IMG/VR virus record: IMGVR_UViG_3300021600_000003
Location: 1-19,248 of that record
Strand: one strand, 5' to 3'
Source of the DNA: a virus
Lineage: Duplodnaviria > Heunggongvirae > Uroviricota > Caudoviricetes
Length of the DNA stretch: 19,248 bases
Within the stretch, counting starts at the first letter, position 1, and every line of letters begins with the position of its first letter. Shown here in pieces: positions 1,042 through 15,223 of this stretch. The notes beneath the pieces are model-generated. The model had not been told where the DNA came from. It made no database searches and saw only the letters and a program-made list of their open reading frames with translations. The position numbers and the translations under genes are program-made.

Positions 1042-1047
1042 AATTAA

Positions 1048-1622: not shown

Positions 1623-1630
1623 CAAATTTA
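1623..1630 (-). promoter_or_regulatory. Possible Bacteroidota -7 promoter element (TAAATTTG, followed by C)
   Basis: Matches TAnnTTTG and overlaps the stop codon of the 157-aa gene, 65 nt before the next ATG. No TTTG -33 element at 19-21 nt spacing, so it may be chance. Confidence 0.3.
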
Positions 1631-2101
1631 TTTCAAATTACCAAAACTTTCTACTACTTTTCTTACTTCCTCTGGAGAAACGAATGCTTGCTCGACAAAA
1701 TCAGTATCTTCCCATGGTCCAAACTGATCCCAACGTAGGAAGTTTTCTGATTTTAGTAGATTTTTATTCTCAGGATATCCAAATATCTCAGGATCACTTT
1801 TACCAAATAGAACTATTCCGTTCTTTAAACCCTTAAAGTTGAAATGAACCATATGTGGAAAGAAGTTCTCTACAGATATAAACATATCTGCTCCTCTCAT
1901 TAACTCTATTAACTCTTTAGAGGATAATCCAAACTGGGTTGCAGAAGCTAATTGTCTTTCTCCTAGAGCTCCAACTTGTATAACTTCATGATTATCAGCT
2001 AGTAATAGAGATATTAAAGGTTGCCAATATGGATAATTCTTAGGGTGAGGAGTATCTTTTTCTCTTAACTGTTTACTAAATGGTGATATTATAATTTTCA
2101 T
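1628..2101 (-). CDS. GT9 (heptosyltransferase-like, GT-B fold) C-terminal donor-binding half encoded as its own gene
   Basis: IISPFS...HPKNYPYWQPLISLL...EVIQVG..GE...LSSKELIELMRGADMFISVENFFPHM...GIVLFGKSDPEIFGYPEN follows the GT9 C-domain pattern (hP.s...K.Wp...l...L..v..G...e...sL.el..li..adl.i..Ds...Hla...v.lFG.t.p..wgP). Confidence 0.7.
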   Translation of the reverse strand: MKIIISPFSKQLREKDTPHPKNYPYWQPLISLLLADNHEVIQVGALGERQLASATQFGLSSKELIELMRGADMFISVENFFPHMVHFNFKGLKNGIVLFGKSDPEIFGYPENKNLLKSENFLRWDQFGPWEDTDFVEQAFVSPEEVRKVVESFGNLK

Positions 2102-2184
2102 TCTTTCATTTTTATGTGTAAGATTTCTTCTACCTGCATACGATTTTTTAGGTTACTATCCAACCATGTTTGTTTAAATGTCAT
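2098..2184 (-). CDS. 28-aa mini-ORF bridging the two GT9-like halves
   Basis: MTFKQTWLDSNLKNRMQVEEILHIKMKE*. Its ATG overlaps the upstream TGA (ATGA at 2184-2181) and its TGA overlaps the downstream ATG (ATGA at 2101-2098). It fills the 79-nt gap exactly. Confidence 0.5.
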   Translation of the reverse strand: MTFKQTWLDSNLKNRMQVEEILHIKMKE

Positions 2185-3197
2185 AGATACATTCTCCTGA
2201 AACCCTCTATAAGATGGATTTTCTCTTTTGTATCCCATAGTAATTTATATACTTGGAAAGGTGTAATATCTCCATATATAGCTTTAGCATCTGCTATAGA
2301 AATAATGTTTAACTCTGGCTCATCCCAAAAGACATCTGGAAAACATGCTGCTATAGTAATATGTTTATGTTTTTCCTTTAATTCTGGTAAGATATTCTTA
2401 AAAGCCCAATGATCTCCAATTCCACAATCTAATATAACCATCTTACTATCTTCCTCAGATACATTCCAAAGTGATAGATAGGCTTTGAATATCTTCTCAT
2501 CATGTTCCCATAATATTGGGTCATTAAATGTACGAATACCTCCTTCTCTAGCTTGGAAGTGATATACCTGAGCATTCATATTTACCATTAATTTATATCC
2601 TGCTCTCTTGAGTGAGTGAGAGAATATAGTCTCTTCACGGTGAGCTACGGTAGATAATGTCAAATCATAGTTCATCAATCCTTTTCTGTATAGAAAACAT
2701 GAATAAAGATGATCTGCTTCGTGAATACCTTCTCCTTTAAACCATTGGATATTAGGTGTTTTTAGGTTATCTATTCTATTTTTGAGTCCTACTGGGAGTG
2801 GCTGAGGATTAGGCATAGTGACAGAAGGAGCAACAGCACCAATCTTCTCGTCCTTAGATATGATTGCATTTAGTTTTCTTAAGGTTTCTGGTTCAGCAAT
2901 ACAATCATCATCGATTCGGAAGACTAATTCTGTCTCAGCACAATCCTGAATCATCTGATGGGAGTGATGCTGACCTTTCTTCACTCCAAATTTAACCTGC
3001 CACTTTATGTTCTTCTCGTCAAATAGACGGAAGATATACTCATAATGTGGAATAGTGGTAAGATTTATTGGCTTATCACTATCATCTACAATAATAACCT
3101 CATATGGAGGTACAGATTGTAACGCAATAGATAAGAGAGTCTTATCCAGACTCTCATATCTATTTTTTGTGGGGATACCGCAAGTGATTTTAGTCAT
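2181..3197 (-). CDS. GT2-family glycosyltransferase fused to a GT9-like N-terminal module
   Basis: GT-A motifs CGIPTKNRYESL, IIVDDS, VFRIDDDC (DxD) and AHREETIFS. The last ~88 aa (KMVILDCGIGDHWAFKNILPELKEKHKHITIAAC) resemble the GIGD start of GT9 acceptor domains. Confidence 0.8.
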   Translation of the reverse strand: MTKITCGIPTKNRYESLDKTLLSIALQSVPPYEVIIVDDSDKPINLTTIPHYEYIFRLFDEKNIKWQVKFGVKKGQHHSHQMIQDCAETELVFRIDDDCIAEPETLRKLNAIISKDEKIGAVAPSVTMPNPQPLPVGLKNRIDNLKTPNIQWFKGEGIHEADHLYSCFLYRKGLMNYDLTLSTVAHREETIFSHSLKRAGYKLMVNMNAQVYHFQAREGGIRTFNDPILWEHDEKIFKAYLSLWNVSEEDSKMVILDCGIGDHWAFKNILPELKEKHKHITIAACFPDVFWDEPELNIISIADAKAIYGDITPFQVYKLLWDTKEKIHLIEGFRRMYL

Positions 3198-3273
3198 TTA
3201 AGTAATTTATTGCATTATATTGCTTCTTCTTGTATTCTAGATTCTTCTGTTTCTTTTCTTCTAACGTTTGCAT
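3190..3273 (-). CDS. Possible 27-aa Lys-rich mini-ORF overlapping the end of the giant enzyme and the start of the next gene
   Basis: MQTLEEKKQKNLEYKKKQYNAINYLND*, preceded by AAAAACAAAT. It starts just after the point where the GT2 domain ends like its sister domains (LKNKY versus LLERY, LLQKY, LYNKY). Confidence 0.25.
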   Translation of the reverse strand: MQTLEEKKQKNLEYKKKQYNAINYLND

Positions 3274-6200
3274 ATTTGTTTTTAAGTAATTGTGTTTTCT
3301 CTTCTGTTCTTTTAGGAGCCATTCCTGTTGATTTCACAGTATAGGTTAATAACTTCTCGGGATTATGGATAAATGAACAACCTAAATCATCTAACCTTAA
3401 CCACATATCCCAATCCTCTATACTATCTAATCTATCATCAAAACGTTGGTGAGATAAAACATGATATCTACACACTACTCCTGATATAAAGATAAAAGGT
3501 GTCTCTAACATTATCTTTCCACCGGGATACTCTAGAGGATCTGGTATACCATACGGAATTGCTTCTTGACCATTATCGAATTGATGTCGAACTGATGAGT
3601 ATATAATATCATTGATGTCGATTTTATTTAACTGTTTCATCATGTAATCTTTATCCCATATATCATCGCTATCACAGAAGGCAATATGTGTAAAATCTCC
3701 ACTTGTTACTTTATTTAATCCCATATTACGAGCAGATGATGGACCACCATTCTCTTTCTCTATAATAGTAATCTTAGGATGACTAGCTAGAATTTTTACT
3801 GCTTTTTGTCTATCTTCACTACCATCATCTATTATAAATAATGTCCAATTAAGGAATGACTGTCCTGTGATTGCTGATACTGACTTTAAAAGATTAGCTT
3901 CATCATTATAATAAGGCATAATTATAGCTACTTTGCTTACATCTAGTAATCCCTTATCTGTTAAATACTGTTGATTTTCTTGTACAAAGATAGGAAAACT
4001 ATGATCAATTTCCCATTTTTTTGTAATTATATTAGAATTTCTTCCAAAATGCTCTCTTCCCTGTGAGATAAGATAATTAATACGAGTACTATCCTTATAC
4101 TCTAAAGTATTTAACTCCTGATGAGCCCATCCTTCTAATTTCTGTATAATAGCTTTACTACCACCCATCCATGAGAAATGCCATCCACCATCAGATATCT
4201 TTTGGTCATTAGACATCTCCTCATATCTTAATCCTGTTAGAGATAATTTTCTTTCTCTTATAAACTTCATTGGAGCTATACGTGAGAAGGTAGAAGGTGC
4301 TATAGTAGAAATACCTACATTATAGTTAAGATAATAACTAAACTGATTCTGCTCAAAGAATTTAGGTTCTTCATAGTTATCAATCTTACTAGCTCTAGGT
4401 ATTTCATCTAAATCAGATACTATAATCATATCCTCATCTTTAGCTATAGGTTCTAGAGCATTTATTATAAAGTCTCTCTGATGATGTTCTCTTACCCAAG
4501 GATCAACAGTTTCTATATTTGGTGGGATAACGATTATAATCTTATCTGACCATTTAGCAAAAAGTTCTAGATTCTCTGATAGATATAATGGTTTAGGCTT
4601 ACCTGAATGAGTTTGTTCCATTTCAGATATGATAAAGTAATCTACCTGATTATATAACTCATTTAATCGTATCTCTAATAAGTCTAACTCATTAAAGAAA
4701 GAAAAACAATCAAATACTTTATAACTTCTTGTTTGTGAGGAAGTTATTAATTGCTTATCTTTATAATATTGTAAGTTATCCTGTACATACTTTGGATGAT
4801 TAGAGAAGTCTATTATCTTAGTAAAGTGTAAATTTCTTCTAAAAATATCTTTACCATTTAATATAGCATCTTCTAAATGTTGGTCATTAGTAAAGTAGTC
4901 ATTATTAAATTCAGAGTGTGAGTAGGCTTGAATCTTCTGTTTAACAGATTTAACATCTCCTAAGAATGAGAAGTGCCATCCACCATTAGGAATAATCATA
5001 TTATATACATAATCATCTTTACCTCTATAACTCTGCATATCCTTTCCAAATAAAGCTGAGAATGGGAAGATACGAGCTTTAAACCATCTCTCCTCTATCT
5101 GCCAATCTAACTTATAGTAGAATAAAGACATCTCAATAGCACATACTCCCATATCTACTTGATACTTCTGTATTACTTCTTTTCTTACTATCTCATCACA
5201 ATCAGACATTATAATAATATCATTAGGCTGATAGTCAGCTAAACCATCCATTATAGCACGTCTCTGATAATGTTCTCTATCCCAAGTAGATGTACAATTA
5301 GGAAATTCATGTAGTAATATATAATGTACCTTATCTGCTTTATCTCCTAGAGATTTCCAGTCAAAATACATTGGTTTTGCATTCCCTTGATGGTCAAATA
5401 ATGATTCTACCACAACAAACTTATCTACTACATCATATAATTCCTCTACACGCATCTTAAATAACTCTACTTCATTATAGAAAATGCATGTATCAATTAC
5501 TTTACCTCTAGGGATAGGTTGTTTAAACCATTTCTTATAACGATTTTCAGGTAATACATACCAGATATTAGCTCCACTAAACACATTTTCCCTTCCAAAT
5601 AAGTCATATAAGGCAGGTGCTACACTATCATTCCACTGAATATCATGACCAGTAATCAGACATCCATCCTTAACTTTTGGAAGCCAAGCTTTTACATCTC
5701 TTTGAACTCCCTCATAACGATGGTCAGCATCTATGAATACTAAATCACAAGATTTATCATTAAATAAGAAAGCAGAATCTGCACTATCCATAGGATATAT
5801 CTTAACATAATCTGTTAATCCAAATCTCTCAATATTGTCTTTAAAGATTTGAAGTAAGTCCATACCTTTTACTTGTGCACCATCTTCCATTTCCCAAGGT
5901 GAACCTTTAAATGTATCAATAGCATGTACTTGTATATTCTTCTCTTTGATTATTTCTGCAGCAGAACATAATGAACGTCCCATCCATACACCAATTTCAG
6001 CCATTACTCCTCCATCTGGAATTCTTCTAATTAATTCTTTATAGAATGCTTGATCATCCCATCCAAACCATCCTCCGGGTAATTCTTTCTCTAGATAAAC
6101 ACCATACTTATTATATAAGTGATGAACATATTGTTCTAAACGTTGTTTGGATTGACCATATAATGGAGCAAATGTACCACCACCTATATGCATAATAGGA

Positions 6201-9088
6201 AAACTACCAACTCTACTAGAGTCTCCCTGATTTTCATGATTGTAATTAATATCCTCTGGAGTCTCTACTAATTTGAATCCTGCTTGTTGTGCACGAATAC
6301 AAAAGTCAACATCTTCATGATAACCTTCTCCAAATATTTCATCAAGTAAACCTATTTCCTTAAAGACTTCTCTTTTAATCATAACACACCAAAATAACAT
6401 ATATTCTGCACGTACATCATCTCTCCAAGCTTTCATAGGTCCAACAATACCTACATTATCTACAAAACGAGTTAGTAGTAACTTAATCCATTGATCCTTT
6501 TCTTGAGGACGTAATTCTACATCATTATTTAGAAGAATAATAAATTCACCCATACTTTCCTTTATACCTGCATTAGTAGCTTTGATAAAACCTACTCTTT
6601 GATCTATCCAGTATAACTTAAAAGGATTACCTAGTGAGTAAACATACTCCCGTGTGGCGTCAGTACAACCATTAGCTACTATAATTACCTCAATCTCTGT
6701 TAAGTCTGTATATCTCTGAATAGAAGCAATACAACCTTTAAGTAAATCTAGATTATTATATGTAGGAATTACTATAGATATACGAGGCTTTGTAGGATAT
6801 TTCTGTAGAAGAGAGGTCTTTTTAGTAGAATCCCAAGTAGATATTCCTATTAATTTATTCTTCTCTAGAGAAAATGTCATGGCATCTTTATGGATAAGAG
6901 GAAATTCTCTCCATAGTTGATTAGGATTATTTGATAGATATTCTTTGGTTAGACTTAAGTCATCTTTTCTATCGGTAGGAACTTGTACTAACTTATATCC
7001 TAACTTCTTTACACGAATAGCAAAGTCTATATCTTCCTCATATCCCATTCCAAAATCTTCATCCAATAAACCAACTTTATCTATAATAGCTCGGGTTGTC
7101 ATAGCACAAAAGAATACCATATACTCTTCTCTAAAGGTTAATACATTATCATCCCAAAAGAATCTCCAATCTTTATATGGACCAGTTATACCTACATTAG
7201 TACCTTCTATAAATGGCTTTTTCAAGATATTAAGCCATGTAGATTTAAGTACCTCAGTATCATTGTTTAAAAAAACAATATACTTACCTATAGCAGCTCT
7301 TATTCCTGCATTGGTAGCCTTAATAAAGCCTACAGGTTCATCTATCCATATTAACTTAAATGTACCTCCTAGACTATCTACATATTGTTTAGTGTCATCA
7401 GTGCATCCATTAGCTACAACTATAACTTCAACATTACTTAAATCTGTAGTGTTTATAATACTTTGAAGACATGATTTAAGACAGTCTTCTAAATGGTTAT
7501 ATGTGGGTATAATTATTGATACGTCTTTCACAGGGTCTGTTTTTTCTAATTTAAAAGGGGTATATCTAAACATAGAAATACCTTTTCTCATTTCAGGATT
7601 AGGACTTTCATATGCAGATATTAGTTGCATATCAGGTTTATACTCATAAAAGAAACGAGTTACACCTTCACATGCTATGTGGTCATGATAAGCAAAGATA
7701 GCTCCATCTGCAGCATACTTCTTAGCTAATTCTGTATCCTTAACTACGTCTTCGTACTCGTGCCCAGCATCTATAAAGATAAAGTCGAACTTTTTACCTT
7801 CAAGAAATTTTTCTACTTCTGGAGCATGACTATCCCCACGGTAAATATCTATCTTTCCAGTATTCTGACAGTTTAGAAGATTCTGACGATAGTTTAGAGG
7901 ATAGTTCATATCAGCCCAGCCAATATCTATAGTAGTAATATCTTTAACCTGAACTACATCACAGAATATACGTGTTACTCCACCATCAGCTACTCCTATC
8001 TCTAGATAGTGTTCTACCTTTAAATCTCTGCAGTCAAATAAGTATTCTGATAATTCATCTATATCTTGCTGTAGACAATATCCACCTTGAAATCTTCCAC
8101 CAAATTGGTAGAGATTTTTACTTCCTGCACTTAATACAAATTCTCTTATACTCTCAAGAGAAGATATATCACAAAGATTTTCATTTCTGTTAAGAAGGGG
8201 AGTACCATCTTTCCCAATAAATATACCATTAGCAAATCCACCTCTAGAGAGAGCCATACGTGTTCTATTATCTATGGTAGATGTCATTTTTCCATCCTCT
8301 GCCAAATGAGCAGTAATCTTATCTAGACGAGGAATAACTTCCCAACTATTAACTGTGTCAAGTAAGTTACCTATCTCTATATGTTTAGCTTTATCTTTAT
8401 ACCTCTCGAGAAGAATAGCTTCATTCCTTGGAACAACTTGTGACCATTCAGGTACCTCATTTACTGTGACTGACCCTTTATGCCATATAGGAAATTGTAA
8501 GATATGTTCATCAGTTGGACGAACAGTTGTAAGAGATATCTCATTTGGTACCTGAACTATCTTATAACCAAGCTGTTTTAATTTATGACAAAAGTCTATA
8601 TCTTCTCCATATCCGGGATTAAAGATTGGATCAATTCCTCCAACTCTTTCTAAGATATCTCTTCTAGTCATTGAACAGAAGAATAATATAAACTCACTCT
8701 CTGTTTCTTTATGATAGTTTTTAGCTGCTCCTGTTATACCTACTTCATTATCCAATAAAAAAGGAGCTTCTAGCATTTCCAGCCAGTTAGCTCCCATTAT
8801 CTGTAAATCATTATTTAATAAAATTATGTATTCTCCCTTACTAACCTCAATACCCATATTTGTAGCATTAGTAAAACCCAATGCTCTATCTACAGATATA
8901 GAAAATATATTAGGATATCTTTTATGTAATTCATAAATATAAGATAGAGTACCATCATCACTACAACCATTAGCTACTACAATTATCTCAACATCTTGTA
9001 AATCAGTATGTTGTATAATACTTTCTAAACATGGTTTTAGGCAATCCTCAAAATGCTTATATGTAGGTATAATTATTGAATACTTCAT
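3215..9088 (-). CDS. 1957-aa eight-module glycosyltransferase/methyltransferase (GT2-MT-GT2-GT2-MT-GT17-GT17-GT2)
   Basis: Three GT2 modules with SII(I/V)PTY, IVVANGC, (L/F)LNND and Y(G/E/H)EDxDF motifs. Two Methyltransf_24-like modules (LEIGVADGG..FIDAGHEYEDV..YHDH; AEIGVWMGRS..FIDADHRYEGV..GHDI). Two GT17-like modules (F(Y/F)NE..R..ELY..VD.F, RE..QR, SD(C/L)DEI, GGWHFS(F/W)). One canonical C-terminal GT2 (IMPYYN, IIDDGS, ARNMG, FCDSDD, EDWDMWLR). No signal peptide or obvious TM helix. Confidence 0.92.
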   Translation of the reverse strand: MKYSIIIPTYKHFEDCLKPCLESIIQHTDLQDVEIIVVANGCSDDGTLSYIYELHKRYPNIFSISVDRALGFTNATNMGIEVSKGEYIILLNNDLQIMGANWLEMLEAPFLLDNEVGITGAAKNYHKETESEFILFFCSMTRRDILERVGGIDPIFNPGYGEDIDFCHKLKQLGYKIVQVPNEISLTTVRPTDEHILQFPIWHKGSVTVNEVPEWSQVVPRNEAILLERYKDKAKHIEIGNLLDTVNSWEVIPRLDKITAHLAEDGKMTSTIDNRTRMALSRGGFANGIFIGKDGTPLLNRNENLCDISSLESIREFVLSAGSKNLYQFGGRFQGGYCLQQDIDELSEYLFDCRDLKVEHYLEIGVADGGVTRIFCDVVQVKDITTIDIGWADMNYPLNYRQNLLNCQNTGKIDIYRGDSHAPEVEKFLEGKKFDFIFIDAGHEYEDVVKDTELAKKYAADGAIFAYHDHIACEGVTRFFYEYKPDMQLISAYESPNPEMRKGISMFRYTPFKLEKTDPVKDVSIIIPTYNHLEDCLKSCLQSIINTTDLSNVEVIVVANGCTDDTKQYVDSLGGTFKLIWIDEPVGFIKATNAGIRAAIGKYIVFLNNDTEVLKSTWLNILKKPFIEGTNVGITGPYKDWRFFWDDNVLTFREEYMVFFCAMTTRAIIDKVGLLDEDFGMGYEEDIDFAIRVKKLGYKLVQVPTDRKDDLSLTKEYLSNNPNQLWREFPLIHKDAMTFSLEKNKLIGISTWDSTKKTSLLQKYPTKPRISIVIPTYNNLDLLKGCIASIQRYTDLTEIEVIIVANGCTDATREYVYSLGNPFKLYWIDQRVGFIKATNAGIKESMGEFIILLNNDVELRPQEKDQWIKLLLTRFVDNVGIVGPMKAWRDDVRAEYMLFWCVMIKREVFKEIGLLDEIFGEGYHEDVDFCIRAQQAGFKLVETPEDINYNHENQGDSSRVGSFPIMHIGGGTFAPLYGQSKQRLEQYVHHLYNKYGVYLEKELPGGWFGWDDQAFYKELIRRIPDGGVMAEIGVWMGRSLCSAAEIIKEKNIQVHAIDTFKGSPWEMEDGAQVKGMDLLQIFKDNIERFGLTDYVKIYPMDSADSAFLFNDKSCDLVFIDADHRYEGVQRDVKAWLPKVKDGCLITGHDIQWNDSVAPALYDLFGRENVFSGANIWYVLPENRYKKWFKQPIPRGKVIDTCIFYNEVELFKMRVEELYDVVDKFVVVESLFDHQGNAKPMYFDWKSLGDKADKVHYILLHEFPNCTSTWDREHYQRRAIMDGLADYQPNDIIIMSDCDEIVRKEVIQKYQVDMGVCAIEMSLFYYKLDWQIEERWFKARIFPFSALFGKDMQSYRGKDDYVYNMIIPNGGWHFSFLGDVKSVKQKIQAYSHSEFNNDYFTNDQHLEDAILNGKDIFRRNLHFTKIIDFSNHPKYVQDNLQYYKDKQLITSSQTRSYKVFDCFSFFNELDLLEIRLNELYNQVDYFIISEMEQTHSGKPKPLYLSENLELFAKWSDKIIIVIPPNIETVDPWVREHHQRDFIINALEPIAKDEDMIIVSDLDEIPRASKIDNYEEPKFFEQNQFSYYLNYNVGISTIAPSTFSRIAPMKFIRERKLSLTGLRYEEMSNDQKISDGGWHFSWMGGSKAIIQKLEGWAHQELNTLEYKDSTRINYLISQGREHFGRNSNIITKKWEIDHSFPIFVQENQQYLTDKGLLDVSKVAIIMPYYNDEANLLKSVSAITGQSFLNWTLFIIDDGSEDRQKAVKILASHPKITIIEKENGGPSSARNMGLNKVTSGDFTHIAFCDSDDIWDKDYMMKQLNKIDINDIIYSSVRHQFDNGQEAIPYGIPDPLEYPGGKIMLETPFIFISGVVCRYHVLSHQRFDDRLDSIEDWDMWLRLDDLGCSFIHNPEKLLTYTVKSTGMAPKRTEEKTQLLKNKYANVRRKETEESRIQEEAI
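3270..3935 (-). other. Module 8: canonical GT2 domain
   Basis: VAIIMPYYN, FIIDDGSED, ENGGPSSARNMGL, IAFCDSDD, IEDWDMWLRL. Confidence 0.88.
3950..5505 (-). other. Modules 6 and 7: tandem GT17 (MGAT3/GnT-III-like) domains
   Basis: IDTCIFYNEVELFKMRVEELYDVVDKFVVVES..WDREHYQR..SDCDEI..GGWHFSFLG..KQKIQAYSHSE (about 5505-4750) and VFDCFSFFNELDLLEIRLNELYNQVDYFIISE..WVREHHQR..SDLDEIPR..GGWHFSWMG..QKLEGWAHQE (about 4723-3950). Confidence 0.85.
5555..6090 (-). other. Module 5: class I SAM methyltransferase (Methyltransf_24-like)
   Basis: MAEIGVWMGRS, AIDTFKGS, PMDSADSA, LVFIDADHRYEGVQRDVKAWLPKVKDG, GHD. Confidence 0.88.
6105..7525 (-). other. Modules 3 and 4: tandem GT2 domains (ANGC/LNND type)
   Basis: VSIIIPTYNH..IVVANGCTDD..VFLNND..YEEDIDF (about 7525-6795) and ISIVIPTYNN..IIVANGCTDA..ILLNND..YHEDVDF (about 6785-6105). 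Confidence 0.85.
7550..8130 (-). other. Module 2: class I SAM methyltransferase (Methyltransf_24-like)
   Basis: YLEIGVADGG (motif I), TTID, RGDS, FDFIFIDAGHEYEDVVKD, YHD. Boundaries approximate. Confidence 0.85.
8400..9088 (-). other. Module 1: GT2 domain (ANGC/LNND type)
   Basis: YSIIIPTYKH, IVVANGCSDDG, ILLNND, GYGEDIDFC. Boundaries approximate. Confidence 0.85.
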
Positions 9089-9103
9089 GCGATGGTTTTC
9101 CTA

Positions 9104-9135
9104 CAAAGATATAGTATATAGTAATATCTTCCAAA
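9104..9135 (-). promoter_or_regulatory. Bacteroidota housekeeping-sigma-type promoter upstream of the giant enzyme
   Basis: Minus strand reads TTTG (9135-9132), a 20-nt spacer, then TATCTTTG (9111-9104), an exact match to TTTG-N19-21-TAnnTTTG. It sits in the 48-nt intergenic gap and ends 15 nt before the ATG. Confidence 0.75.
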
Positions 9136-9136
9136 T

Positions 9137-9748
9137 TTATTTTACTTGTATAACTCCTATACCTGCCCAATCTGCAGTATTATCTAAAAACTCTTTCTTA
9201 TCTCCTTCTAACTCTTTCCAGAAACGATGTACCTCACAACTATAATCCTTATGAGTTTTTGTTTCTTTGATATCATGCATACCTATATATCCACCTTTTT
9301 TAACAAAAGGAAGATAATTATAGTAATCTGCCTTTACACCCTCATAAGAATGGTCTGCATCAATAAATATAAAATCTAATTTATCTTCTCCTAATTTCTC
9401 CTTAACCCAATCTATAGATACTTTCTCTTTTGTATCATTGAATAGAACATGACAGTTTGGAGCAAATGTCTCAAACATATGCTTATTTTGTTCAATCTCT
9501 CTATCAGTTCTTACATGACCTACTCCCCATGGTCCATTAGGTAAATCTATACCCAACTTAATTCCTCCGGGAGTAGCTATTGAACACCATACATAAAAGC
9601 TGCCACCCTGACATAATCCTAATTCAAGAAAGTTTTTAGGTTGTACTATCTTATCAACAAATTCCATAAAAGGAATAATCTCGTTAGGTAATTGTAATAA
9701 AGCTCCTGTTGTTAGAGCTGCTGTATTTGCTATTGCTTGATAGTTCAT
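9137..9748 (-). CDS. Stand-alone class I SAM-dependent methyltransferase (Methyltransf_24-like), probably a sugar O-methyltransferase
   Basis: FLELGLCQGGSF, LGID, LDFIFIDADHSYEGVKADY..FVKKGGYIGMHDI, VHRFWKEL, WAGIGVI. Same FIDAxHxYExV signature as the two MT modules of the giant enzyme. The sugar substrate is inferred from context. Confidence 0.88.
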   Translation of the reverse strand: MNYQAIANTAALTTGALLQLPNEIIPFMEFVDKIVQPKNFLELGLCQGGSFYVWCSIATPGGIKLGIDLPNGPWGVGHVRTDREIEQNKHMFETFAPNCHVLFNDTKEKVSIDWVKEKLGEDKLDFIFIDADHSYEGVKADYYNYLPFVKKGGYIGMHDIKETKTHKDYSCEVHRFWKELEGDKKEFLDNTADWAGIGVIQVK

Positions 9749-9749
9749 A

Positions 9750-10544
9750 TTAATATATTTTTTCAGTTGTTATATCAAGATGACCACATCTAATATTCGT
9801 ATCAACACATATCTTAAATCCTGCTTCTTTAGCCTTCTTGTAAAAGAATAAATCTTGAGTAAATCCTATTGGACCAGCTTCTGTCATTTCATTAACAGAT
9901 TTGAAGAATGGAGAAGATATCTTTCCACTCTCAAATATAGACCTTTTCATTAATGTAAAACCCATACCACTTCCATTAACATTTACTACATCTCCCGGTC
10001 TCCAGTTTATATTTACCTCAAATGGTTTTGAGGAGTTGATATCTCCATCTCCATATATAAGAGGAAGAGATGGATCACCTTTTGTCCAATATAATCCTGA
10101 GGCTATATCATAGCCACTCTCGAGGTGTTTATACATCTCGATTAAAGGTCCATATGTTCCGGGAATAAAAGGGATAATAACATCATCTTCCATGAAGAGA
10201 AGATACTTAAATTGAACAAGATTAGGATTTGTAAGAACTTGTTTAATAGCTTCTTCATAAGCTTCTCCTACTTCATGACCACTGACAACTAATTCAGTTA
10301 CAGGTACATTCATTGGTTTTATTAAGCGTTTCCAGCTTTCAACTATCCAAGGATGGAATCCCACTTGATATTCTATACATACATCTTTACCACACTCACA
10401 TTTCTTTGTGACTTCTTTCTTACCTCTTGTGGCAATTATAATTAAAGTAGCATAGTTTTTATAGGAATTTCCCTCTATAAATAGATTTTTCCATGCTTTG
10501 TTTTCACTCTCATCAATGAGAGTATCTAATTTTTGTACTTCCAT
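9750..10544 (-). CDS. GT-A fold (GT2-like) glycosyltransferase
   Basis: LIIIATRG, YLLFMEDDV (DxD-like), IASGLYW, NGSGMGFTLMKRSIFE, PFF, TQDLFFYKKAKEAGFKICVDTNIRCGH. Its stop is 1 nt before the next ATG. Confidence 0.8.
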   Translation of the reverse strand: MEVQKLDTLIDESENKAWKNLFIEGNSYKNYATLIIIATRGKKEVTKKCECGKDVCIEYQVGFHPWIVESWKRLIKPMNVPVTELVVSGHEVGEAYEEAIKQVLTNPNLVQFKYLLFMEDDVIIPFIPGTYGPLIEMYKHLESGYDIASGLYWTKGDPSLPLIYGDGDINSSKPFEVNINWRPGDVVNVNGSGMGFTLMKRSIFESGKISSPFFKSVNEMTEAGPIGFTQDLFFYKKAKEAGFKICVDTNIRCGHLDITTEKIY

Positions 10545-10558
10545 ATGTTGGTTTTTAG

Positions 10559-10566
10559 CAAATATA
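10559..10566 (-). promoter_or_regulatory. Bacteroidota-type -7 promoter element in front of the glycan cassette
   Basis: Minus strand GTTG-TATATTTG-C lies in the 31-nt gap between the fibre stop and the GT start, 14 nt before the ATG. No clear -33 TTTG. Confidence 0.6.
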
Positions 10567-10575
10567 CAACTTTTA

Positions 10576-13500
10576 TTACATTGCTGTTAATAATATCCAA
10601 GGTTTTCTTAAACCTAGTGCTATATCATTATATACAAATCCAGTAGCTGTACTAGCAACACTTGTTACTACAGCATTTGTTGTAGCATTACTATGACCCC
10701 AATAAGGAACCATAGCATTATTAAGTCCTGCTACACTTGCTACAGTTGTTGAGCCAGCTATATTAACAGTACCTGCAGCACTACTCATACCATATAAAGT
10801 AGCTGCTAAGTTTCCTCCTGTTAAGAAAACATAACCAAACCACCATTCTCCGGGAGTTAAGCTAACATTAGATGCTATTTGATAATATCTTATTGAAGAA
10901 TATCCACCCCACTGAGTAGCTACAGTTGATAAGTTACTTGATGCTGCATTACTTGACCATGACCAAGTTCCTGTAGCTGCACTAGCAAGAGATAATGTAT
11001 TAGCATTTTTAGTATAAAATCCTGCATATAAAGAGAAACCAGCTGTTACGTTAGTTGTTTGTGAAGCATTTAACATGAACTTCAAAGCTGTAGCATTTAT
11101 ATTTCCATCTACATAGAATGGAACAGCAAAGAATGAACCATGAGTAATACCACCATTAGGAAAAGGAACACCTTGGAATGGTTCAAATAAATTATATGTA
11201 GGTGCACCTGTACCACTATAACCAGAATATCCAGTATAACCACTATAACCACTATAGCCAGTGTATCCTGAGTAGCCAGAAATACCACTGTATCCTGAGT
11301 AACCACTAAATCCTGAATAACCACTAAATCCTGAACTACCTGTTGCACCACCACTGTACCCACTATATCCAGTATAACCAGAATATCCAGAAGGTCCACT
11401 ATATCCACTATAGCCACTTAATCCAGTATAACCAGAATATCCAGAAGGTCCACTATATCCAGAGTATCCTGAGATACCTGAATAACCACTAAAGCCACTA
11501 GTACCATTTCCTCCACCACTATAGCCACTATAACCTGTATATCCACTATATCCACTTATACCTGAGTATCCTGAATAACCAGAAATACCTGAGTACGCAC
11601 TATAACCAGAGTATCCAGAAGAACCACTATACCCACTATAACCACTAGAACCAGAATAACCACTAAATCCAGAAGAACCAGTACCACCTCCACTATAACC
11701 AGAATATCCTGTATAACCAGAGTAACCTGATAGACCTGAGTACCCACTAAATCCTGATATACCTGTATAACCAGAATAGCCTGAATTTCCTGAGTACCCA
11801 CTAAATCCACTACTTCCTGCTCCACCACCTGAATAACCTGAATAACCAGTAAAGCCTGAATAACCACTTATTCCACTATAACCACTGTACCCAGATAGAC
11901 CACTGTATGCAGAATAACCACTGTATCCTGACAGTCCACTATATCCACTAAATCCTGAACTACCAGCTCCTCCACCACTATATCCTGAGTAACCAGTATA
12001 TCCACTGTATCCACTTAATCCACTGTAACCAGAGAAACCACTTATACCAATATAACCACTGTATCCTGAGTTTCCTATGAATCCAGAGTAACCTGATAAA
12101 CCAGAATATCCACTATAACCACTCAATCCACTATATGCAGAATAACCAGATAATCCTGAATAAGCACTATAGCCACTTAATCCACTATAGCCACTAAAAC
12201 CACTACTACTAGAGTAACCACTATATCCTGTGTAACCACTGAATCCACTAGAACTGCTATAGCCTGAATATCCAGTGTATCCAGAGTAACCTGTATATCC
12301 TGAGTATCCGCTATAACCCGTATAACCACTATAACCACTTTTACCACTATATGCAGAGTATCCTGTATATCCTGAATAACCACTTATACCGCTATATGCT
12401 GAATAACCACTTATTCCTGAATAACCTGAGAACCCTGAAATACCACTATAAGCTGAATAACCTGTATATCCAGAGTAACCACTTAAACCAGAGTAAGCAG
12501 AATAACCTGATAGACCACTGTAAGCTGAATATCCACTGTAACCAGATATTCCAGTATAACCTGAATATCCTGAAGTACCTATATAACCTGAATATCCTGA
12601 ATAGGCTGAGTAACCACTAATTCCAATATATCCACTATATCCACTTTCACCAGCTAATGTAACAGATACTGATATATTTTGATTGTTGGTAAATGTACCT
12701 CCACCTGTAACATATGTTACTGTATAACCATCATATAATGGAGAACCTGCACTTCCAAGATTTACATCTATATGCCAAATATGTGCTTTAGATAAATCAC
12801 TAGGATCAAATATCATAAAATGATCACCGGGACCAAGACTATCTAAGAAAGCATCCATTGGTAAACTAAACCTATCTAGTTCAGATAGATTAATTTGTGT
12901 AGTAGATGAATAAGTAACAGGATCACTAAAGTTTATAAATCCAGCTGCAGGATTTCCTCCAGTAGAATTACTCCATTGATAATCTAGAGTAAATCCTCCA
13001 ACATTTCCACTAAATCCTGAGTTTCCTGAGTATCCTGAGTATCCACTTATTCCAGTATAACCACTATAACCACTAGTTCCTATGAAACCACTATATCCAG
13101 AATATCCACTAATACCACTTCCTGAGTAACCAGAATAACCAGTATAACCCGAATAACCACTGTATCCAGTATATCCTGAGTAGCCACTCTTTCCAGAGTA
13201 ACCAGAGTATCCACTAATACCAGAGTAACCTGAGTAGCCTGTATAACCACTAAAGCCACTAATACCTGAATAGGCTGAGTAACCACTATACCCACTTATA
13301 CCACTTCCGCTATAACCTGAATATCCACTCAAACCTGAGTATGCAGAATAACCACTAAATCCTGATTGACCACTATAACCACTATAACCAGAAGAACTAC
13401 TATAACCTGAATAACCTGATGAACTACTATAACCACTATACCCTGTATATCCAGAATATCCCGAATAACCAGTATAACCACTGTAACCACTCTTTCCACT

Positions 13501-14910
13501 GTAGGCAGAATAACCTGAAATACCTGAGTAGGCAGAATAACCTGACAATCCAGAATAAGCTGAGTAACCAGATAGTCCTGAATAACCAGAGAAACCAGAT
13601 AGTCCACTATATCCTGAATACCCTGTGTAACCACTGAATCCTGATAAACCTGAATATGCAGAGTATCCACTTAGTCCAGAGTATGCAGAGTATCCTGATA
13701 AACCACTATATGCTGAATATCCTGATATACCAATAAAGCCACTATATCCACTTATTCCACTATAAGCTGAGTAACCAGATACACCACTTCCTGAATAACC
13801 ACTATATCCAGAACGTCCTGAATATGCTGAATAGCCACTGTAACCACTAGTACCAATAAATCCACTGTATCCACTAGTACCTACTGTTGCTGTACCATCA
13901 TAACCACTCCATCCAGAACGTCCACTATATCCACTATAACCTGATGCTGCTGAACCATTTACAACAAATCTTCCAGCAAAACGTTTATCAGGAGTTCCTA
14001 AAACTGTAACTCTTACAACATTAGAAGAAATTTCTTCTACTAAATATGGAGTTACAAGGAAAGGAGTAGATGTCATATCCCATATATCTACAACTAAATT
14101 GAAAGAGTTTAGATTATGAGTAAAATCTATATAGTAATTTCCTCCAGAGGAAACCCAGTCTACTAGAGAAAATACTTGACTCCAAGCTACAGATCCACTT
14201 CCACTATATCCAGAAAAACCACTACTTCCTATTCCACTGTAACCACTATAACCACTAATACCTATTGGTCCAATATAACCACTGTAACCACTTAATCCTA
14301 ATCCACTATAACCTGACCAGCCACTCAAACCACTGCCACTATAACCAGAGTACCCAGTCCAACCACTTTTGCCACTATATCCACTATATCCAGTTCTCCC
14401 ACTTATACCACTATAGGCTGAGTATCCACTAATACCTAGTCCACTATATCCACTCCAACCTGATATACCACTACCACTATAACCAGAATAACCACTATCT
14501 CCACTGTAAGCTGAGTATCCACTCTCTCCTGAATATGCAGAATAACCTGATAACCCCGAGTAGGCAGAATAACCACTTGCACCTAAATAACCACTGTAAC
14601 TAGAGTAGCCACTCTTACCTGAATAGGCTGAGTAACCTGACAATCCTATACCAGAGTAACCACTTATACCCCTTCCAGAATAGCCCGAGAATCCAGAGAA
14701 GACAGCATCACCATCTCTTCCAGAATAACCAGAGTAACCAGATTTTCCATCTATACCATCTGATCCTTGTGCTTGATTACAAATCTTATTTAAAATCGAA
14801 GTGAGTGACTCACCTTTTGTAGTAGGGACACATAACTTTCCCGGACAGTCATCGACTATCTGGGATATACCTATTTCAGGATCAGTGACTACTATGTATT
14901 TCTTATCCAT
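10576..14910 (-). CDS. 1444-aa (Gly-Tyr-Ser)n repeat fibre-like protein, probable tail/head fibre or receptor-binding protein
   Basis: Cys-containing N-terminal cap and three Gly-X-Ser triplet blocks. A FTHNL..VVD.WD small beta domain and a GGFTLDYQW..NPAAG domain separate the blocks; both resemble spacer domains I recall from collagen-repeat phage fibres. Ends in a ~205-aa beta-rich domain (VPFYV..YAGFY..LTPGEWWFG). The virion role is inferred. Confidence 0.75.
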   Translation of the reverse strand: MDKKYIVVTDPEIGISQIVDDCPGKLCVPTTKGESLTSILNKICNQAQGSDGIDGKSGYSGYSGRDGDAVFSGFSGYSGRGISGYSGIGLSGYSAYSGKSGYSSYSGYLGASGYSAYSGLSGYSAYSGESGYSAYSGDSGYSGYSGSGISGWSGYSGLGISGYSAYSGISGRTGYSGYSGKSGWTGYSGYSGSGLSGWSGYSGLGLSGYSGYIGPIGISGYSGYSGIGSSGFSGYSGSGSVAWSQVFSLVDWVSSGGNYYIDFTHNLNSFNLVVDIWDMTSTPFLVTPYLVEEISSNVVRVTVLGTPDKRFAGRFVVNGSAASGYSGYSGRSGWSGYDGTATVGTSGYSGFIGTSGYSGYSAYSGRSGYSGYSGSGVSGYSAYSGISGYSGFIGISGYSAYSGLSGYSAYSGLSGYSAYSGLSGFSGYTGYSGYSGLSGFSGYSGLSGYSAYSGLSGYSAYSGISGYSAYSGKSGYSGYTGYSGYSGYTGYSGYSSSSGYSGYSSSSGYSGYSGQSGFSGYSAYSGLSGYSGYSGSGISGYSGYSAYSGISGFSGYTGYSGYSGISGYSGYSGKSGYSGYTGYSGYSGYTGYSGYSGSGISGYSGYSGFIGTSGYSGYTGISGYSGYSGNSGFSGNVGGFTLDYQWSNSTGGNPAAGFINFSDPVTYSSTTQINLSELDRFSLPMDAFLDSLGPGDHFMIFDPSDLSKAHIWHIDVNLGSAGSPLYDGYTVTYVTGGGTFTNNQNISVSVTLAGESGYSGYIGISGYSAYSGYSGYIGTSGYSGYTGISGYSGYSAYSGLSGYSAYSGLSGYSGYTGYSAYSGISGFSGYSGISGYSAYSGISGYSGYTGYSAYSGKSGYSGYTGYSGYSGYTGYSGYTGYSGYSSSSGFSGYTGYSGYSSSSGFSGYSGLSGYSAYSGLSGYSAYSGLSGYSGYSGLSGYSGFIGNSGYSGYIGISGFSGYSGLSGYSGYTGYSGYSGGGAGSSGFSGYSGLSGYSGYSAYSGLSGYSGYSGISGYSGFTGYSGYSGGGAGSSGFSGYSGNSGYSGYTGISGFSGYSGLSGYSGYTGYSGYSGGGTGSSGFSGYSGSSGYSGYSGSSGYSGYSAYSGISGYSGYSGISGYSGYTGYSGYSGGGNGTSGFSGYSGISGYSGYSGPSGYSGYTGLSGYSGYSGPSGYSGYTGYSGYSGGATGSSGFSGYSGFSGYSGYSGISGYSGYTGYSGYSGYTGYSGYSGTGAPTYNLFEPFQGVPFPNGGITHGSFFAVPFYVDGNINATALKFMLNASQTTNVTAGFSLYAGFYTKNANTLSLASAATGTWSWSSNAASSNLSTVATQWGGYSSIRYYQIASNVSLTPGEWWFGYVFLTGGNLAATLYGMSSAAGTVNIAGSTTVASVAGLNNAMVPYWGHSNATTNAVVTSVASTATGFVYNDIALGLRKPWILLTAM
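11205..12653 (-). repeat. GYS triplet repeat block 3 (about 483 aa)
   Basis: Longest block. Its distal part holds five TGYSGYS-GG(G/A)X-G(S/T)SGFSGYSG higher-order units. Confidence 0.95.
13005..13945 (-). repeat. GYS triplet repeat block 2 (about 313 aa)
   Basis: Recurrent SGYSAYSGL and SGYTGY units and YSSSSG substitutions. Confidence 0.95.
14195..14750 (-). repeat. GYS triplet repeat block 1 (about 185 aa)
   Basis: SGYSGYSG..SGYSAYSGLSGYSAYSGES.. with frequent G-X-G interruptions (SGRGIS, SGIGLS, SGSGIS, SGLGIS). Confidence 0.95.
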
Positions 14911-14986: not shown

Positions 14987-15223
14987 CTAATCCAAATCTA
15001 TCTTTTCATCAATTATCTCCATCTCAGGAATCTCAGGAATATCCTCAACTTCTAATCTTCCTTGAGACATTCTATGAGAAAATGGGTCCTCTATAAAGGT
15101 ACCCAAATCATCTGCTATACAGTTTTGAAAAAATTCATCTACATTCTTTTCCTCTAGTTGAAAGTAGTACTCATATGTTGAGATATAAATAACCTTTCCT
15201 GTGGGTAATGATATATTAGGCAT
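14987..15223 (-). CDS. Small acidic hypothetical phage protein
   Basis: 78 aa (LPTGKVIYISTYEY..DEFFQ..IEDPF) with an acidic tail. The ATG overlaps the upstream stop (TAATG, 15225-15221). It resembles from memory a small LPxGKxIxIS protein of Bacteroidota phages; this is unverified. Confidence 0.75.
   Translation of the reverse strand: MPNISLPTGKVIYISTYEYYFQLEEKNVDEFFQNCIADDLGTFIEDPFSHRMSQGRLEVEDIPEIPEMEIIDEKIDLD

What the first reader, a model, noticed from the sequence alone, without database searches (positions are those of the whole stretch)
1628..14910. Candidate phage virion-glycosylation system: glycan assembly line next to a Ser-saturated fibre
Seen: directly after a fibre-like gene with roughly 300 Gly-X-Ser triplets come five enzyme genes. 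Together they hold about 9 GT units (six GT-A/GT2-like, two GT17, one split GT9-like) and 3 SAM methyltransferase domains. None has a signal peptide or TM helix, and the window has no flippase, polymerase, GtrABC or nucleotide-sugar synthesis gene. Established: serine-rich repeat adhesins (Fap1/GspB/PsrP) are O-glycosylated by adjacent cytoplasmic GT clusters; chlorovirus PBCV-1 (A064R, a GT+MT fusion) and some mycobacteriophages glycosylate their own virion proteins. Inference: this phage builds a multi-sugar, O-methylated glycan on the fibre or other virion proteins from host donors. It could hide the particle from proteases or antibodies, mimic host capsule, or tune adsorption. I cannot tell whether this arrangement has been described.
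Basis: partly seen in the sequence, partly recalled or inferred. Interest (0 to 1): 0.9.

Follow-up and report, generated by a model that had tools for sequence, protein, structure and literature searches.

The report
Phage fibre with its glycosylation kit
A lake-water crAss-like phage encodes a 1444-residue, almost proline-free Gly-Tyr-Ser repeat fibre followed by five soluble sugar-adding and methylating enzyme genes; the core enzyme pair travels with such fibres in many unrelated phages, so the fibre is probably sugar-coated, though no experiment shows it.

Summary
On the minus strand, a 1444-aa fibre-like protein (295 in-register Gly/Ala-X-Y triplets, mostly G-Y-S) is followed by five genes. 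They encode 4+1 GT2 domains, 2 GT17 domains, 3 sugar-type SAM methyltransferase domains, a small phage-type GT-A-like protein and a split GT9-like unit. None has a TM segment. The 130-kb genome has no nucleotide-sugar, flippase or ABC-exporter gene.

New here:
- The last two genes (338 aa and 157 aa) are a conserved pair: 79 of 80 IMG/VR relatives keep both, usually with a 4-nt overlap.
- The 157-aa protein folds as the donor domain of GT9 heptosyltransferases.
- It is predicted to dock on the small C-terminal domain of the 338-aa protein, and natural fusions of exactly these parts exist.
- 46 of those 80 loci carry a (G-X-S)n gene in the flanks, against 0 of 120 random viral loci.
- The only isolate with the pair, Methylophilaceae phage P19250A, has it right after a 1201-aa GXS protein mis-annotated as tape measure.

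Best reading (about 0.65): cytoplasmic O-glycosylation and O-methylation of the fibre's serines. Glycosylation itself is untested. This scan has already flagged the same theme on at least 23 other genomes. I found no paper that describes it.

The parts
10576..14910 (-). Fibre-like protein, 1444 aa. Collagen-like (Gly/Ala-X-Ser/Thr) repeats in 17 blocks, interrupted by globular inserts (about aa 232-322 and 638-756), with a 190-aa C-terminal domain. Proposed acceptor.
   Evidence: The non-repeat parts match no informative family.
9750..10544 (-). p264, a small soluble GT-A-like protein of a phage-only family, with an EDD motif. Found only in the closest relatives (L004 at 75% identity; L134).
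   Evidence: Weak evidence.
9137..9748 (-). p203, a stand-alone SAM methyltransferase (Methyltransf_24, with RMNT_CmcI rhamnosyl O-methyltransferase-like and Methyltransf_3 hits).
3215..9088 (-). 1957-aa eight-module enzyme. Modules in nucleotides: GT2 9088-8369, MT24 about 8011-7679, GT2 7519-6809, GT2 6781-6089, MT24 5998-5639, GT17 5533-4838, GT17 4732-4046, GT2 3925-3218.
   Evidence: 481 multi-domain homologues in metagenomes.
2451..3197 (-). p338 N-terminal GT-A domain (aa 1-249), with invariant R94 and D96-D97-D98.
   Evidence: Best structural matches are polypeptide GalNAc-transferases at Z 20.6, statistically tied with other GT-A enzymes.
2184..2447 (-). p338 C-terminal mini Rossmann domain (aa 251-338), with invariant G259-x-G261-D262-H263. 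Proposed reduced acceptor-side half of a split GT9-like GT-B.
1628..2101 (-). p157, the donor-side (C-terminal) domain of a GT9-type glycosyltransferase, encoded as a separate gene.

Best explanation
This is a phage-encoded, cytoplasmic protein-glycosylation system whose substrate is the phage's own (Gly-X-Ser)n fibre.

Proposed sequence of events (all steps are inferred):
1. Late in infection the fibre and the five enzymes are made from the same co-directional, tightly spaced gene block.
2. The p338/p157 pair does the conserved, fibre-specific chemistry. It is a GT-A domain plus a two-gene GT9-like GT-B unit and is the only part of the cassette that accompanies GXS fibres across unrelated phages. 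Most likely it attaches the first sugar or sugars to serine hydroxyls at the exposed Y position of the triplets.
3. The lineage-specific enzymes then extend and cap the glycan: p264, p203 and the eight-module enzyme (four GT2, two GT17 and two sugar-type O-methyltransferase modules). Donors are host nucleotide sugars and SAM.
4. The result would be a fibre densely coated with short, partly O-methylated glycans.

Likely uses are stabilising and solubilising a proline-free, Tyr-rich repeat, protecting it, and shaping adsorption.

Shown here: domain content, the fold of p157, the conserved pairing, and the co-occurrence with GXS fibres. Inferred: the acceptor, the donors, the order of action and the biological role.
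For: 1. Forward co-occurrence. At least 580 IMG/VR loci encode p338 relatives. Of the best 80:
- 79 have p157 beside p338.
- 46 have a (G-X-S)n ORF in the flanks, nearly always on the same strand and 0.4-9 kb away. This is 16 of 24 when at least 5 kb is available on both sides.
- Random IMG/VR loci give 0 of 120 in 976 kb, Fisher p about 1e-23.
- The association survives dereplication: 25 of 45 clusters at 70% identity and 10 of 17 at 55%.

2. Reverse co-occurrence. Of 25 bona fide GXS-ORF loci found by a DNA pattern, 14 carry p338 or p157 within the short locus. Four more carry it elsewhere in the same record.

3. Base rate in isolates. p338 hits 1 of 50,697 GenBank phage records, Methylophilaceae siphovirus P19250A. 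There a 1201-aa G-[YFIW]-S protein is followed directly by a SAM methyltransferase-like gene, the p338 homologue and the p157 homologue.

4. Range of carriers. They span unrelated phage types: this crAss-like phage, a siphovirus of Betaproteobacteria, a contig with a T4-type portal, and 134-338-kb contigs. Only 10 small MAG contigs carry it among 185,579 species genomes. A conserved acceptor supplied by the phage explains this better than host-specific glycans would.

5. The p338/p157 unit.
- The p157 model (pLDDT 91) matches GT9 donor domains: WaaF 181-347 at Z 15.8, rmsd 2.2, 135 aligned; TibC 217-391 at Z 15.5; WaaC at Z 14.6. The next GT-B scores Z 10.9 or less.
- 9 of 15 family members hit Pfam Glyco_transf_9, best E 5e-7.
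- The predicted complex with p338 scores 0.77 against a best control of 0.01. In the tool's calibration that mark was reached by 58 of 80 solved complexes and 2 of 110 mismatched pairs. Partner pLDDT is at least 88 and the runs agree in 100% of contacts. My own alignments were used, so those counts hold only roughly; the model supports binding and does not show it. The interface uses the invariant G259-H263 loop.
- Natural fusions exist. P0127 (496 aa) is p338 plus p157. P0140 (252 aa) is the p338 mini-domain plus p157 with no GT-A domain.
- The genes overlap by 4 nt in 58 of 94 loci.
- GT9-fold enzymes include TibC, which heptosylates serines of adhesins (PMC4358343).

6. The methyltransferases are of the sugar or small-molecule O-methyltransferase kind (Methyltransf_24, RMNT_CmcI, Methyltransf_3; TylF hits in relatives).

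7. All five enzymes are soluble, and the genome has no export or nucleotide-sugar genes.

8. The fibre is the only GXS-repeat protein in the genome.
Against: - There is no biochemical or proteomic evidence that any GXS fibre is glycosylated.
- Soluble GT2 and GT9 enzymes also act on lipid-linked glycans at the inner face of the membrane, and GT9 is best known from the LPS core.
- The window's own p157 and p338 do not reach Pfam GT9 or the NCBIfam BAHT models.
- About 40% of p338 loci show no GXS gene in the sequence available. In the closest complete relative the fibre lies about 18 kb from the cassette.
- Six of 25 GXS loci have no detected cassette, among them one complete 56-kb record with a marginal repeat.
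- The GT-A match to polypeptide GalNAc-transferases is tied with polysaccharide-making GT-A enzymes.
- That the GXS protein is a virion fibre is itself inferred from repeat-driven PHROG hits and gene position.
Confidence: 0.65

Rival explanations
1. The enzymes glycosylate other virion proteins (capsid, tail, Thr-rich linkers), or build a glycan that is not covalently attached to the GXS repeats. On this reading the fibre and the cassette are linked only because both sit in a mobile host-range module.
For: Relatives carry proteins with long poly-Thr or poly-Ser tracts next to the cassette (L002 and L004). This genome has a 456-aa protein with a 9-residue S/T run. Mycobacteriophage glycans sit on capsid and tail-tube C-termini (as cited in PMC12619734). 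Mega-GTs lacking GT17 occur beside non-GXS fibres (L009, L011).
Against: The specific partner of p338/p157 across lineages is the GXS repeat. The minimal P19250A-type module contains only fibre, methyltransferase, p338 and p157. Random loci show neither feature.
Confidence: 0.14
2. The cassette remodels host envelope glycans (LPS core, O-antigen, capsule) from the cytoplasmic face, for example to block superinfection or stop progeny re-adsorbing to debris. It lies next to the fibre because the fibre recognises that glycan.
For: GT9 is the LPS heptosyltransferase family, and GT2 and GT17-like enzymes commonly build polysaccharides. PHROG labels several hits 'GtrB-like O-antigen conversion'. From my own knowledge, O-antigen modification genes lie beside tailspike genes in some temperate phages.
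Against: No TM segments, flippase, polymerase, ABC exporter or over-threshold GtrA. The same enzyme pair at 36-45% identity occurs in phages of hosts from different phyla, whose envelope glycans differ. The link is to one unusual repeat composition, not to fibres in general. The family is essentially absent from cellular genomes.
Confidence: 0.12
3. The enzymes hypermodify phage DNA by glycosylating and methylating bases.
For: Phage glycosyltransferases often glycosylate DNA (reviewed in PMC12619734, PMC9614988). PHROG calls the methyltransferase hits 'DNA methyltransferase'.
Against: The genes lie in the structural or late block, not the replication module. The methyltransferases match sugar or small-molecule O-methyltransferase families. 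The link to GXS fibres would be left unexplained.
Confidence: 0.03

Closest known systems
TibC/TibA and Aah/AIDA-I (bacterial autotransporter heptosyltransferases, PMC4358343)
   Same: A soluble cytoplasmic GT9-fold enzyme that hyper-glycosylates serines of a long repetitive surface protein encoded next to it. p157 matches the TibC donor domain at Z 15.5.
   Different: Here the GT-B unit is split over two genes and its acceptor-side half is cut to about 90 aa and fused to a GT-A domain. There is no beta-barrel and no iron-finger cysteines (p157 has no Cys), and the BAHT NCBIfam model gives no hit. WaaF and WaaC match equally well. The donor sugar is unknown.
BclA of the Bacillus exosporium (and C. 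difficile BclA3/SgtA): O-glycosylated collagen-like filaments
   Same: A collagen-like Gly-X-Thr/Ser repeat on a surface filament, O-glycosylated in the cytoplasm by dedicated enzymes. Its glycans include methylated sugars (my own knowledge; BclA context in PMC12357932 and PMC11923368).
   Different: Different enzymes. The repeat is GPT rather than GYS. The carrier is a bacterial spore rather than a phage. Homology was not tested.
Mycobacteriophage virion glycosylation (Freeman et al. 2023, as cited in PMC12619734; the paper itself is not held)
   Same: Phage-encoded glycosyltransferases modify the phage's own virion proteins.
   Different: There the targets are the C-termini of capsid and tail-tube subunits. 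Here the proposed target is a repeat fibre with hundreds of sites, with a different and far larger enzyme set. Sequence relationship not tested.
Chlorovirus PBCV-1 A064R and A111/114R (PMC9614988, PMC7826918)
   Same: Virus-encoded, soluble, multi-domain GT-GT-MT fusions that build methylated glycans on a virion protein without host ER machinery.
   Different: These are eukaryotic giant viruses that put N-linked glycans on the capsid protein, with three domains against eight. No homology is shown.
Mimivirus collagen-like proteins with L230 (PMC9614988)
   Same: A virus encoding low-proline collagen-like proteins together with an enzyme that glycosylates them.
   Different: L230 hydroxylates lysine and glucosylates hydroxylysine. 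In this window no hydroxylase is present and serine is the likely acceptor. A relative, L011, does carry 2OG-Fe(II) oxygenases.

Membership tests
CAZy GT9 / Pfam PF01075 (heptosyltransferase-type GT-B) | C-terminal nucleotide-sugar (donor) Rossmann domain of the GT9 type | tested here: met
   The p157 model matches WaaF 181-347 at Z 15.8 (rmsd 2.2, 135 aligned), TibC at Z 15.5 and WaaC at Z 14.6. Other GT-B enzymes score Z 10.9 or less.
CAZy GT9 / Pfam PF01075 (heptosyltransferase-type GT-B) | Match to the family's sequence model | tested here: inconclusive
   The window's p157 has no hit even at E up to 10. Nine of 15 aligned family members hit PF01075, best E 5.2e-7.
CAZy GT9 / Pfam PF01075 (heptosyltransferase-type GT-B) | One polypeptide with a full-size (about 170 aa) N-terminal acceptor domain | tested here: not met
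   The acceptor-side part is an 88-aa mini-domain at the end of p338, on a separate gene from p157. Fused forms exist elsewhere.
BAHT (TibC/Aah) protein heptosyltransferases | Family sequence model, N-terminal beta-barrel, and iron-finger cysteine motif (PMC4358343) | tested here: not met
   No NCBIfam hit for p157, and none of p338's NCBIfam hits is the BAHT model. p157 contains no cysteine. The N-terminus of p338 is a GT-A domain.
BAHT (TibC/Aah) protein heptosyltransferases | Transfers heptose from ADP-heptose to serines of a protein | not testable with these tools
   Needs an enzyme assay.
GT2 (Pfam PF00535) | Sequence model above the curated cut-off, with an acidic DXD-type motif | tested here: met
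   Five domains score 45-82 bits against a cut-off of 23.3. NND or DSDD motifs are visible in the sequence. D96-D98 is invariant in p338.
GT17 (Pfam PF04724) | Sequence model above the curated cut-off | tested here: met
   Two domains score 101.9 and 98.0 bits against a cut-off of 26, covering profile positions 65-299 of 348. No solved relative was found by sequence. Activity is unknown.
Methyltransf_24 (Pfam PF13578) SAM-dependent O-methyltransferases | Sequence model above the curated cut-off | tested here: met
   Scores of 49.8 and 84 bits in the mega-enzyme and 48.9 bits in p203, against a cut-off of 26.3.
Collagen triple-helix repeat (Pfam PF01391) | Uninterrupted Gly-X-Y repeats | tested here: inconclusive
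   The score is 297.6 bits. However, Ala replaces Gly in 27 of 295 triplets, Pro is 1.6%, and X is mostly Tyr. Whether a triple helix forms cannot be tested here.
Serine-rich-repeat adhesin glycosylation (GtfA/GtfB, accessory Sec) | GT4-type GtfA/GtfB initiating pair next to the substrate gene | tested here: not met
   No Glycos_transf_1 (GT4) domain appears in any window protein. The only link is a generic GT2 match to GalT1 (5hea, E 1.5e-9).

The most novel reading that the evidence does not exclude
Glycosylation is a structural requirement and not mere decoration. On this reading the proline-free (Gly-Tyr-Ser)n chain cannot form its fibre fold until p338/p157 glycosylate the serines. The precedent is Ac-(Gly-Pro-Thr)10, which becomes triple-helical only when its threonines are galactosylated (PMC11923368). 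The enzyme pair would then act as a dedicated folding factor for a whole class of 'glyco-collagen' phage fibres. The variable mega-enzymes would write lineage-specific, methyl-capped glycan codes that set host range.
Probability: 0.2. Interest if true: 0.85.

Novelty: new variant of a known kind. Interest (0 to 1): 0.72.

Why it matters
Virion glycosylation by a phage's own enzymes is documented only for a few mycobacteriophages. Here a specific enzyme pair and a specific, very unusual substrate class (proline-free Gly-X-Ser collagen-like fibres) recur together in hundreds of environmental phage contigs from unrelated lineages. That would make glycoprotein fibres a widespread feature of aquatic phages. 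Consequences would follow for adsorption, particle stability and how fibre genes are annotated. The module also includes a conserved split GT9-type enzyme and an eight-module GT/MT assembly line. Because the isolate P19250A carries the minimal module, the idea can be tested directly.

Tried and rejected
- The giant upstream protein (P0003) has no match in GenBank phages.
- The fibre's non-repeat parts have no informative Pfam or PHROG family.
- p338 and the GT17 didomain have no solved relative by sequence.
- The p338 mini-domain alone gives no Pfam hit.
- The DNA pattern for GYSGYSG[YF]SGYSGY was a poor proxy. Only 25 of 120 hits are long GXS ORFs, so the first tallies (16 of 120 loci, 5 of 20 records) understate the link. 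Three of the four complete records without p338 (G001, G009, G018) are not bona fide GXS loci. The fourth, G008, has a marginal 19-triplet repeat.
- Only 20 of 50 requested viral records are held for whole-record searches.
- The Bacteroidota promoter motif TAnnTTTG is present in each spacer but not enriched in the window: 27 observed against 22.8 expected.
- Sigma-70-type promoters are not above shuffles, and terminator-like sites barely are (9 against 6.0, sd 2.5). There is no convincing terminator between the fibre and the enzymes.
- Literature searches found no description of GXS fibres with this cassette.
- Freeman et al. 2023 is not held.
- Sequencing runs: two lake-water DNA holders, and no RNA holder listed.
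- The ppGalNAc-T resemblance of the p338 GT-A domain is not distinctive: Z 20.6, against 19.8 and 19.5 for unrelated GT-A enzymes.
Full report
CONTEXT. The window is the first 19,248 nt of a 129,865-nt IMG/VR record. CheckV puts it at about 90% complete and it is classed as linear. Earlier notes of this scan read the record as a distant crAss-like phage whose injected-protein and RNA-polymerase module starts just past the window. Near-identical DNA occurs in two lake-water metagenome runs. All genes in the window are on the minus strand. In the order of transcription they are:
- the end of a 2095-aa protein (from beyond 19248 down to 15223);
- a 312-nt spacer;
- the fibre (14910-10576);
- p264 (10544-9750);
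- p203 (9748-9137);
- the 1957-aa enzyme (9088-3215);
- p338 (3197-2181);
- p157 (2101-1628);
- three small genes without informative matches (1557-1).
Spacers inside the block are 0-79 nt.

OBSERVATION. The fibre is 24% Gly, 24% Ser, 15% Tyr and 1.6% Pro. It has 295 triplets in Gly/Ala-X-Y register, in 17 blocks. The Y position is Ser in about four of five triplets and the X position is mostly Tyr. Ala replaces Gly in 27 triplets. Pfam Collagen scores 297.6 bits, and the PHROG tail-fibre hits all come from the repeats. The globular inserts and the C-terminal domain match nothing informative.

The 1957-aa protein reads GT2 - Methyltransf_24 - GT2 - GT2 - Methyltransf_24 - GT17 - GT17 - GT2, each module above its curated cut-off. 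p203 is a Methyltransf_24 / RMNT_CmcI-type methyltransferase. p338 begins with a GT2 domain. p264 has only weak glycosyltransferase PHROG hits and resembles phage-only GT-A-type clusters by language-model features.

None of the five enzymes has a hydrophobic 19-residue window at or above 1.6. The whole genome has no NTP_transferase, Epimerase, Polysacc_synt or ABC2_membrane gene, no over-threshold GtrA, and no GT2 outside this block. The fibre is the only GXS-repeat protein in the genome.

THE CORE PAIR. p338 and p157 turned out to be the key to the cluster. Relatives of the mega-enzyme are numerous and very variable in module content: 481 proteins of 1,078-2,997 aa. In every context I fetched, they are followed by a p338-like gene of about 320-350 aa and a p157-like gene of about 150 aa. 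In L008 the p338 part is fused to the end of the mega-enzyme.

- Fold of p157. With an alignment of 15 homologues, p157 folds with pLDDT 91. It matches the C-terminal, donor-binding domains of GT9 enzymes: WaaF at Z 15.8, TibC at Z 15.5, WaaC at Z 14.6. These stand clearly above other GT-B enzymes at Z 10.9 or less. Nine of the 15 homologues reach Pfam Glyco_transf_9, although the window's copy does not.
- Fold of p338. The model (pLDDT 91.4) has a GT-A domain with invariant D96-D98. It also has an 88-residue C-terminal mini Rossmann domain carrying an invariant G-x-G-D-H loop. From memory, that loop recalls the Gly-Asp loop after the first strand of heptosyltransferases that holds their catalytic aspartate. 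I could not test this correspondence.
- Predicted complex. The prediction places p157 against exactly this mini-domain. The score is 0.77 against a best control of 0.01. In the tool's calibration the mark was reached by 58 of 80 solved complexes and 2 of 110 mismatched pairs. Partner pLDDT is at least 88 and the runs agree in 100% of contacts. My own alignments were used, and likeness to solved GT-B enzymes may help the score.
- Independent support from natural fusions. A profile search of 1.84 billion representatives found 305 family members at E up to 1e-30. Most are stand-alone proteins of about 155 aa. One 496-aa protein is p338 (39% identity over the full length) fused to p157. One 252-aa protein is only the mini-domain (45% identity, E 1e-21) fused to p157.
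- Gene overlap. In 58 of 94 loci the two genes overlap by 4 nt.
So p338 C-terminus plus p157 is best read as one GT9-like unit that is habitually encoded in two pieces.

LINK TO THE FIBRE.
- Forward test. IMG/VR holds at least 580 loci with p338 relatives. Among the best 80, 79 have p157 and 46 have a (G-X-S)n ORF in the flanks available. I defined such an ORF as at least 12 G-x-S triplets covering at least 15% of its length. The figure is 16 of 24 when 5 kb is present on both sides. The ORF is almost always co-directional and 0.4-9 kb away.
- Control. In 120 random IMG/VR loci (976 kb) there were no GXS ORFs and no p338 relatives. Fisher p is about 1e-23.
- Dereplication. The association holds in 25 of 45 clusters at 70% identity and 10 of 17 at 55%.
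- Reverse test. A degenerate DNA pattern for GYS repeats gave 120 or more stretches, but only 25 contain real GXS ORFs. Of those, 14 carry p338 or p157 inside the short locus. Four more carry it elsewhere in the same record, and one has mega-type GT2 modules. The remaining six are mostly on incomplete or unsearchable records.
- Isolates. Among 50,697 GenBank phage records, p338 hits a single one, Methylophilaceae phage P19250A, a 38.7-kb siphovirus of a freshwater betaproteobacterium. After its host-specificity protein J and tail-fibre genes comes a 1201-aa G-[YFIW]-S protein annotated 'tail length tape-measure protein'. It is followed directly by a 209-aa SAM methyltransferase-like gene, the p338 homologue and the p157 homologue.
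- Range of carriers. These also include a contig with a T4-type portal and contigs of 134-338 kb. Among 185,579 prokaryotic species genomes only ten small MAG contigs carry the family.
The unit 'GXS fibre + methyltransferase + p338 + p157' therefore behaves as a mobile, phage-borne module. GT17-bearing mega-enzymes are an optional extension seen mainly with GXS fibres.

MECHANISM. An enzyme pair kept at 36-45% identity in phages of hosts from different phyla needs a conserved acceptor, and the only conserved neighbour is the GXS repeat. Combined with soluble enzymes, late-operon position and the absence of export genes, the best reading is cytoplasmic O-glycosylation of the fibre's serines.

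I propose that p338/p157 do the conserved first steps and that p264, p203 and the eight-module enzyme extend and O-methylate the glycan from host nucleotide sugars and SAM. The methyltransferase domains belong to sugar or small-molecule O-methyltransferase families. A relative (L006) adds an RmlA/B/D-like trio next to its 2990-aa enzyme, which hints at a dTDP-6-deoxyhexose donor in that lineage. Which of the two catalytic units of p338/p157 touches the protein is open. GT9-fold TibC heptosylates serines (PMC4358343). The GT-A domain's best structural matches are polypeptide GalNAc-transferases, but these are tied with other GT-A enzymes.

Function is inferred only. Tyr at X and Ser at Y are, from my own knowledge of host-guest peptide studies, poor triple-helix formers. 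Glycosylated Thr can rescue a Gly-Pro-Thr helix (PMC11923368). Stabilisation, solubility, protection and adsorption tuning are therefore all plausible. I put the fibre-glycosylation reading at about 0.65.

RIVALS.
- Other virion proteins or a non-covalent glycan (0.14). Thr-rich tracts lie near the cassette in relatives.
- Host envelope remodelling (0.12). GT9 and GT2 are classic LPS and polysaccharide enzymes. Against this stand the phage-only distribution, the cross-phylum conservation and the specificity for one repeat type.
- DNA modification (0.03).

COMPARISON AND NOVELTY. The system works like TibC/TibA or BclA glycosylation, and like the virus-encoded virion glycosylation of mycobacteriophages and chloroviruses. 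It is not a member of the BAHT family: no model hit, no iron finger, no beta-barrel. It is also an atypical GT9, being split with a reduced N-domain. My literature searches found no description of GXS fibres with this cassette.

This scan has noted the same theme before on other DNA: 26 notes in at least 23 genomes, mostly with TibC-like enzymes. The present case adds five things:
- the split-gene architecture;
- the Rosetta-stone fusions;
- a controlled two-way co-occurrence test;
- the cultured carrier P19250A;
- the largest enzyme, with eight modules including two GT17 domains.
I rate it a new variant of a known kind, of high but unproven interest.

Noticed in passing
L011:1-15646: A 338-kb phage contig has two Gly-X-Gln / GPQ collagen-like fibres ending in Peptidase_S74 chaperone domains; the gene caller had fragmented them. 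Two 2OG-Fe(II) oxygenases, GT/MT genes and p338/p157 homologues follow. This looks like a hydroxylation-plus-glycosylation variant that recalls mimivirus L230.
   Followed up: partly
L006:19752-22280: A 170-kb relative carries RmlB-, RmlD- and RmlA-like genes directly after its 2990-aa mega-glycosyltransferase, and has three G-Y/F-S proteins around it. This hints at a dTDP-6-deoxyhexose donor.
   Followed up: partly
L132:1408-8358 (KX815270.1): In phage P19250A the gene annotated 'tail length tape-measure protein' is a 1201-aa G-X-S repeat protein. It lies after the host-specificity and tail-fibre genes, so the annotation is probably wrong. The neighbouring 'PE family protein' is a Gly/Thr/Ala-rich protein, not a PE protein.
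   Followed up: yes
L002:3-3481 and L004:20066-22298: The closest relatives encode several small proteins with poly-Thr/Ser tracts of 9-20 residues near the cassette. These are possible additional glycan acceptors.
   Followed up: no
window 10559-10566, 9104-9111, 14993-15000, 1623-1630 (minus strand): Each intergenic spacer of the block holds a TAnnTTTG motif, the Bacteroidota -7 promoter type. The motif is not enriched in the window as a whole.
   Followed up: partly
window 1-1557: Three small downstream genes (169, 228 and at least 118 aa) have no homologues in any fetched locus. The first two are 22% Ser+Thr, and the 228-aa one has a sub-threshold BspA-type LRR hit.
   Followed up: no
L012-L014, L022, L027, L036 and other GVMAG loci: The GYS-repeat DNA pattern also hits many giant-virus metagenome bins, yet none passed my long GXS-ORF criterion or has p338. 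I did not examine what the repeat encodes there.
   Followed up: no
P0145, P0141 (representative library): The p157 domain occurs in further fusions: behind a methyltransferase-like N-terminus (328 aa) and at the end of a 1700-aa protein. The unit is shuffled freely among these enzymes.
   Followed up: partly
window 3135-3155: A perfect 8-bp stem with a 5-nt loop lies just inside the 5' end of the p338 coding region, 17 nt spacer plus about 45 nt after the mega-enzyme stop. Its role is unknown.
   Followed up: no
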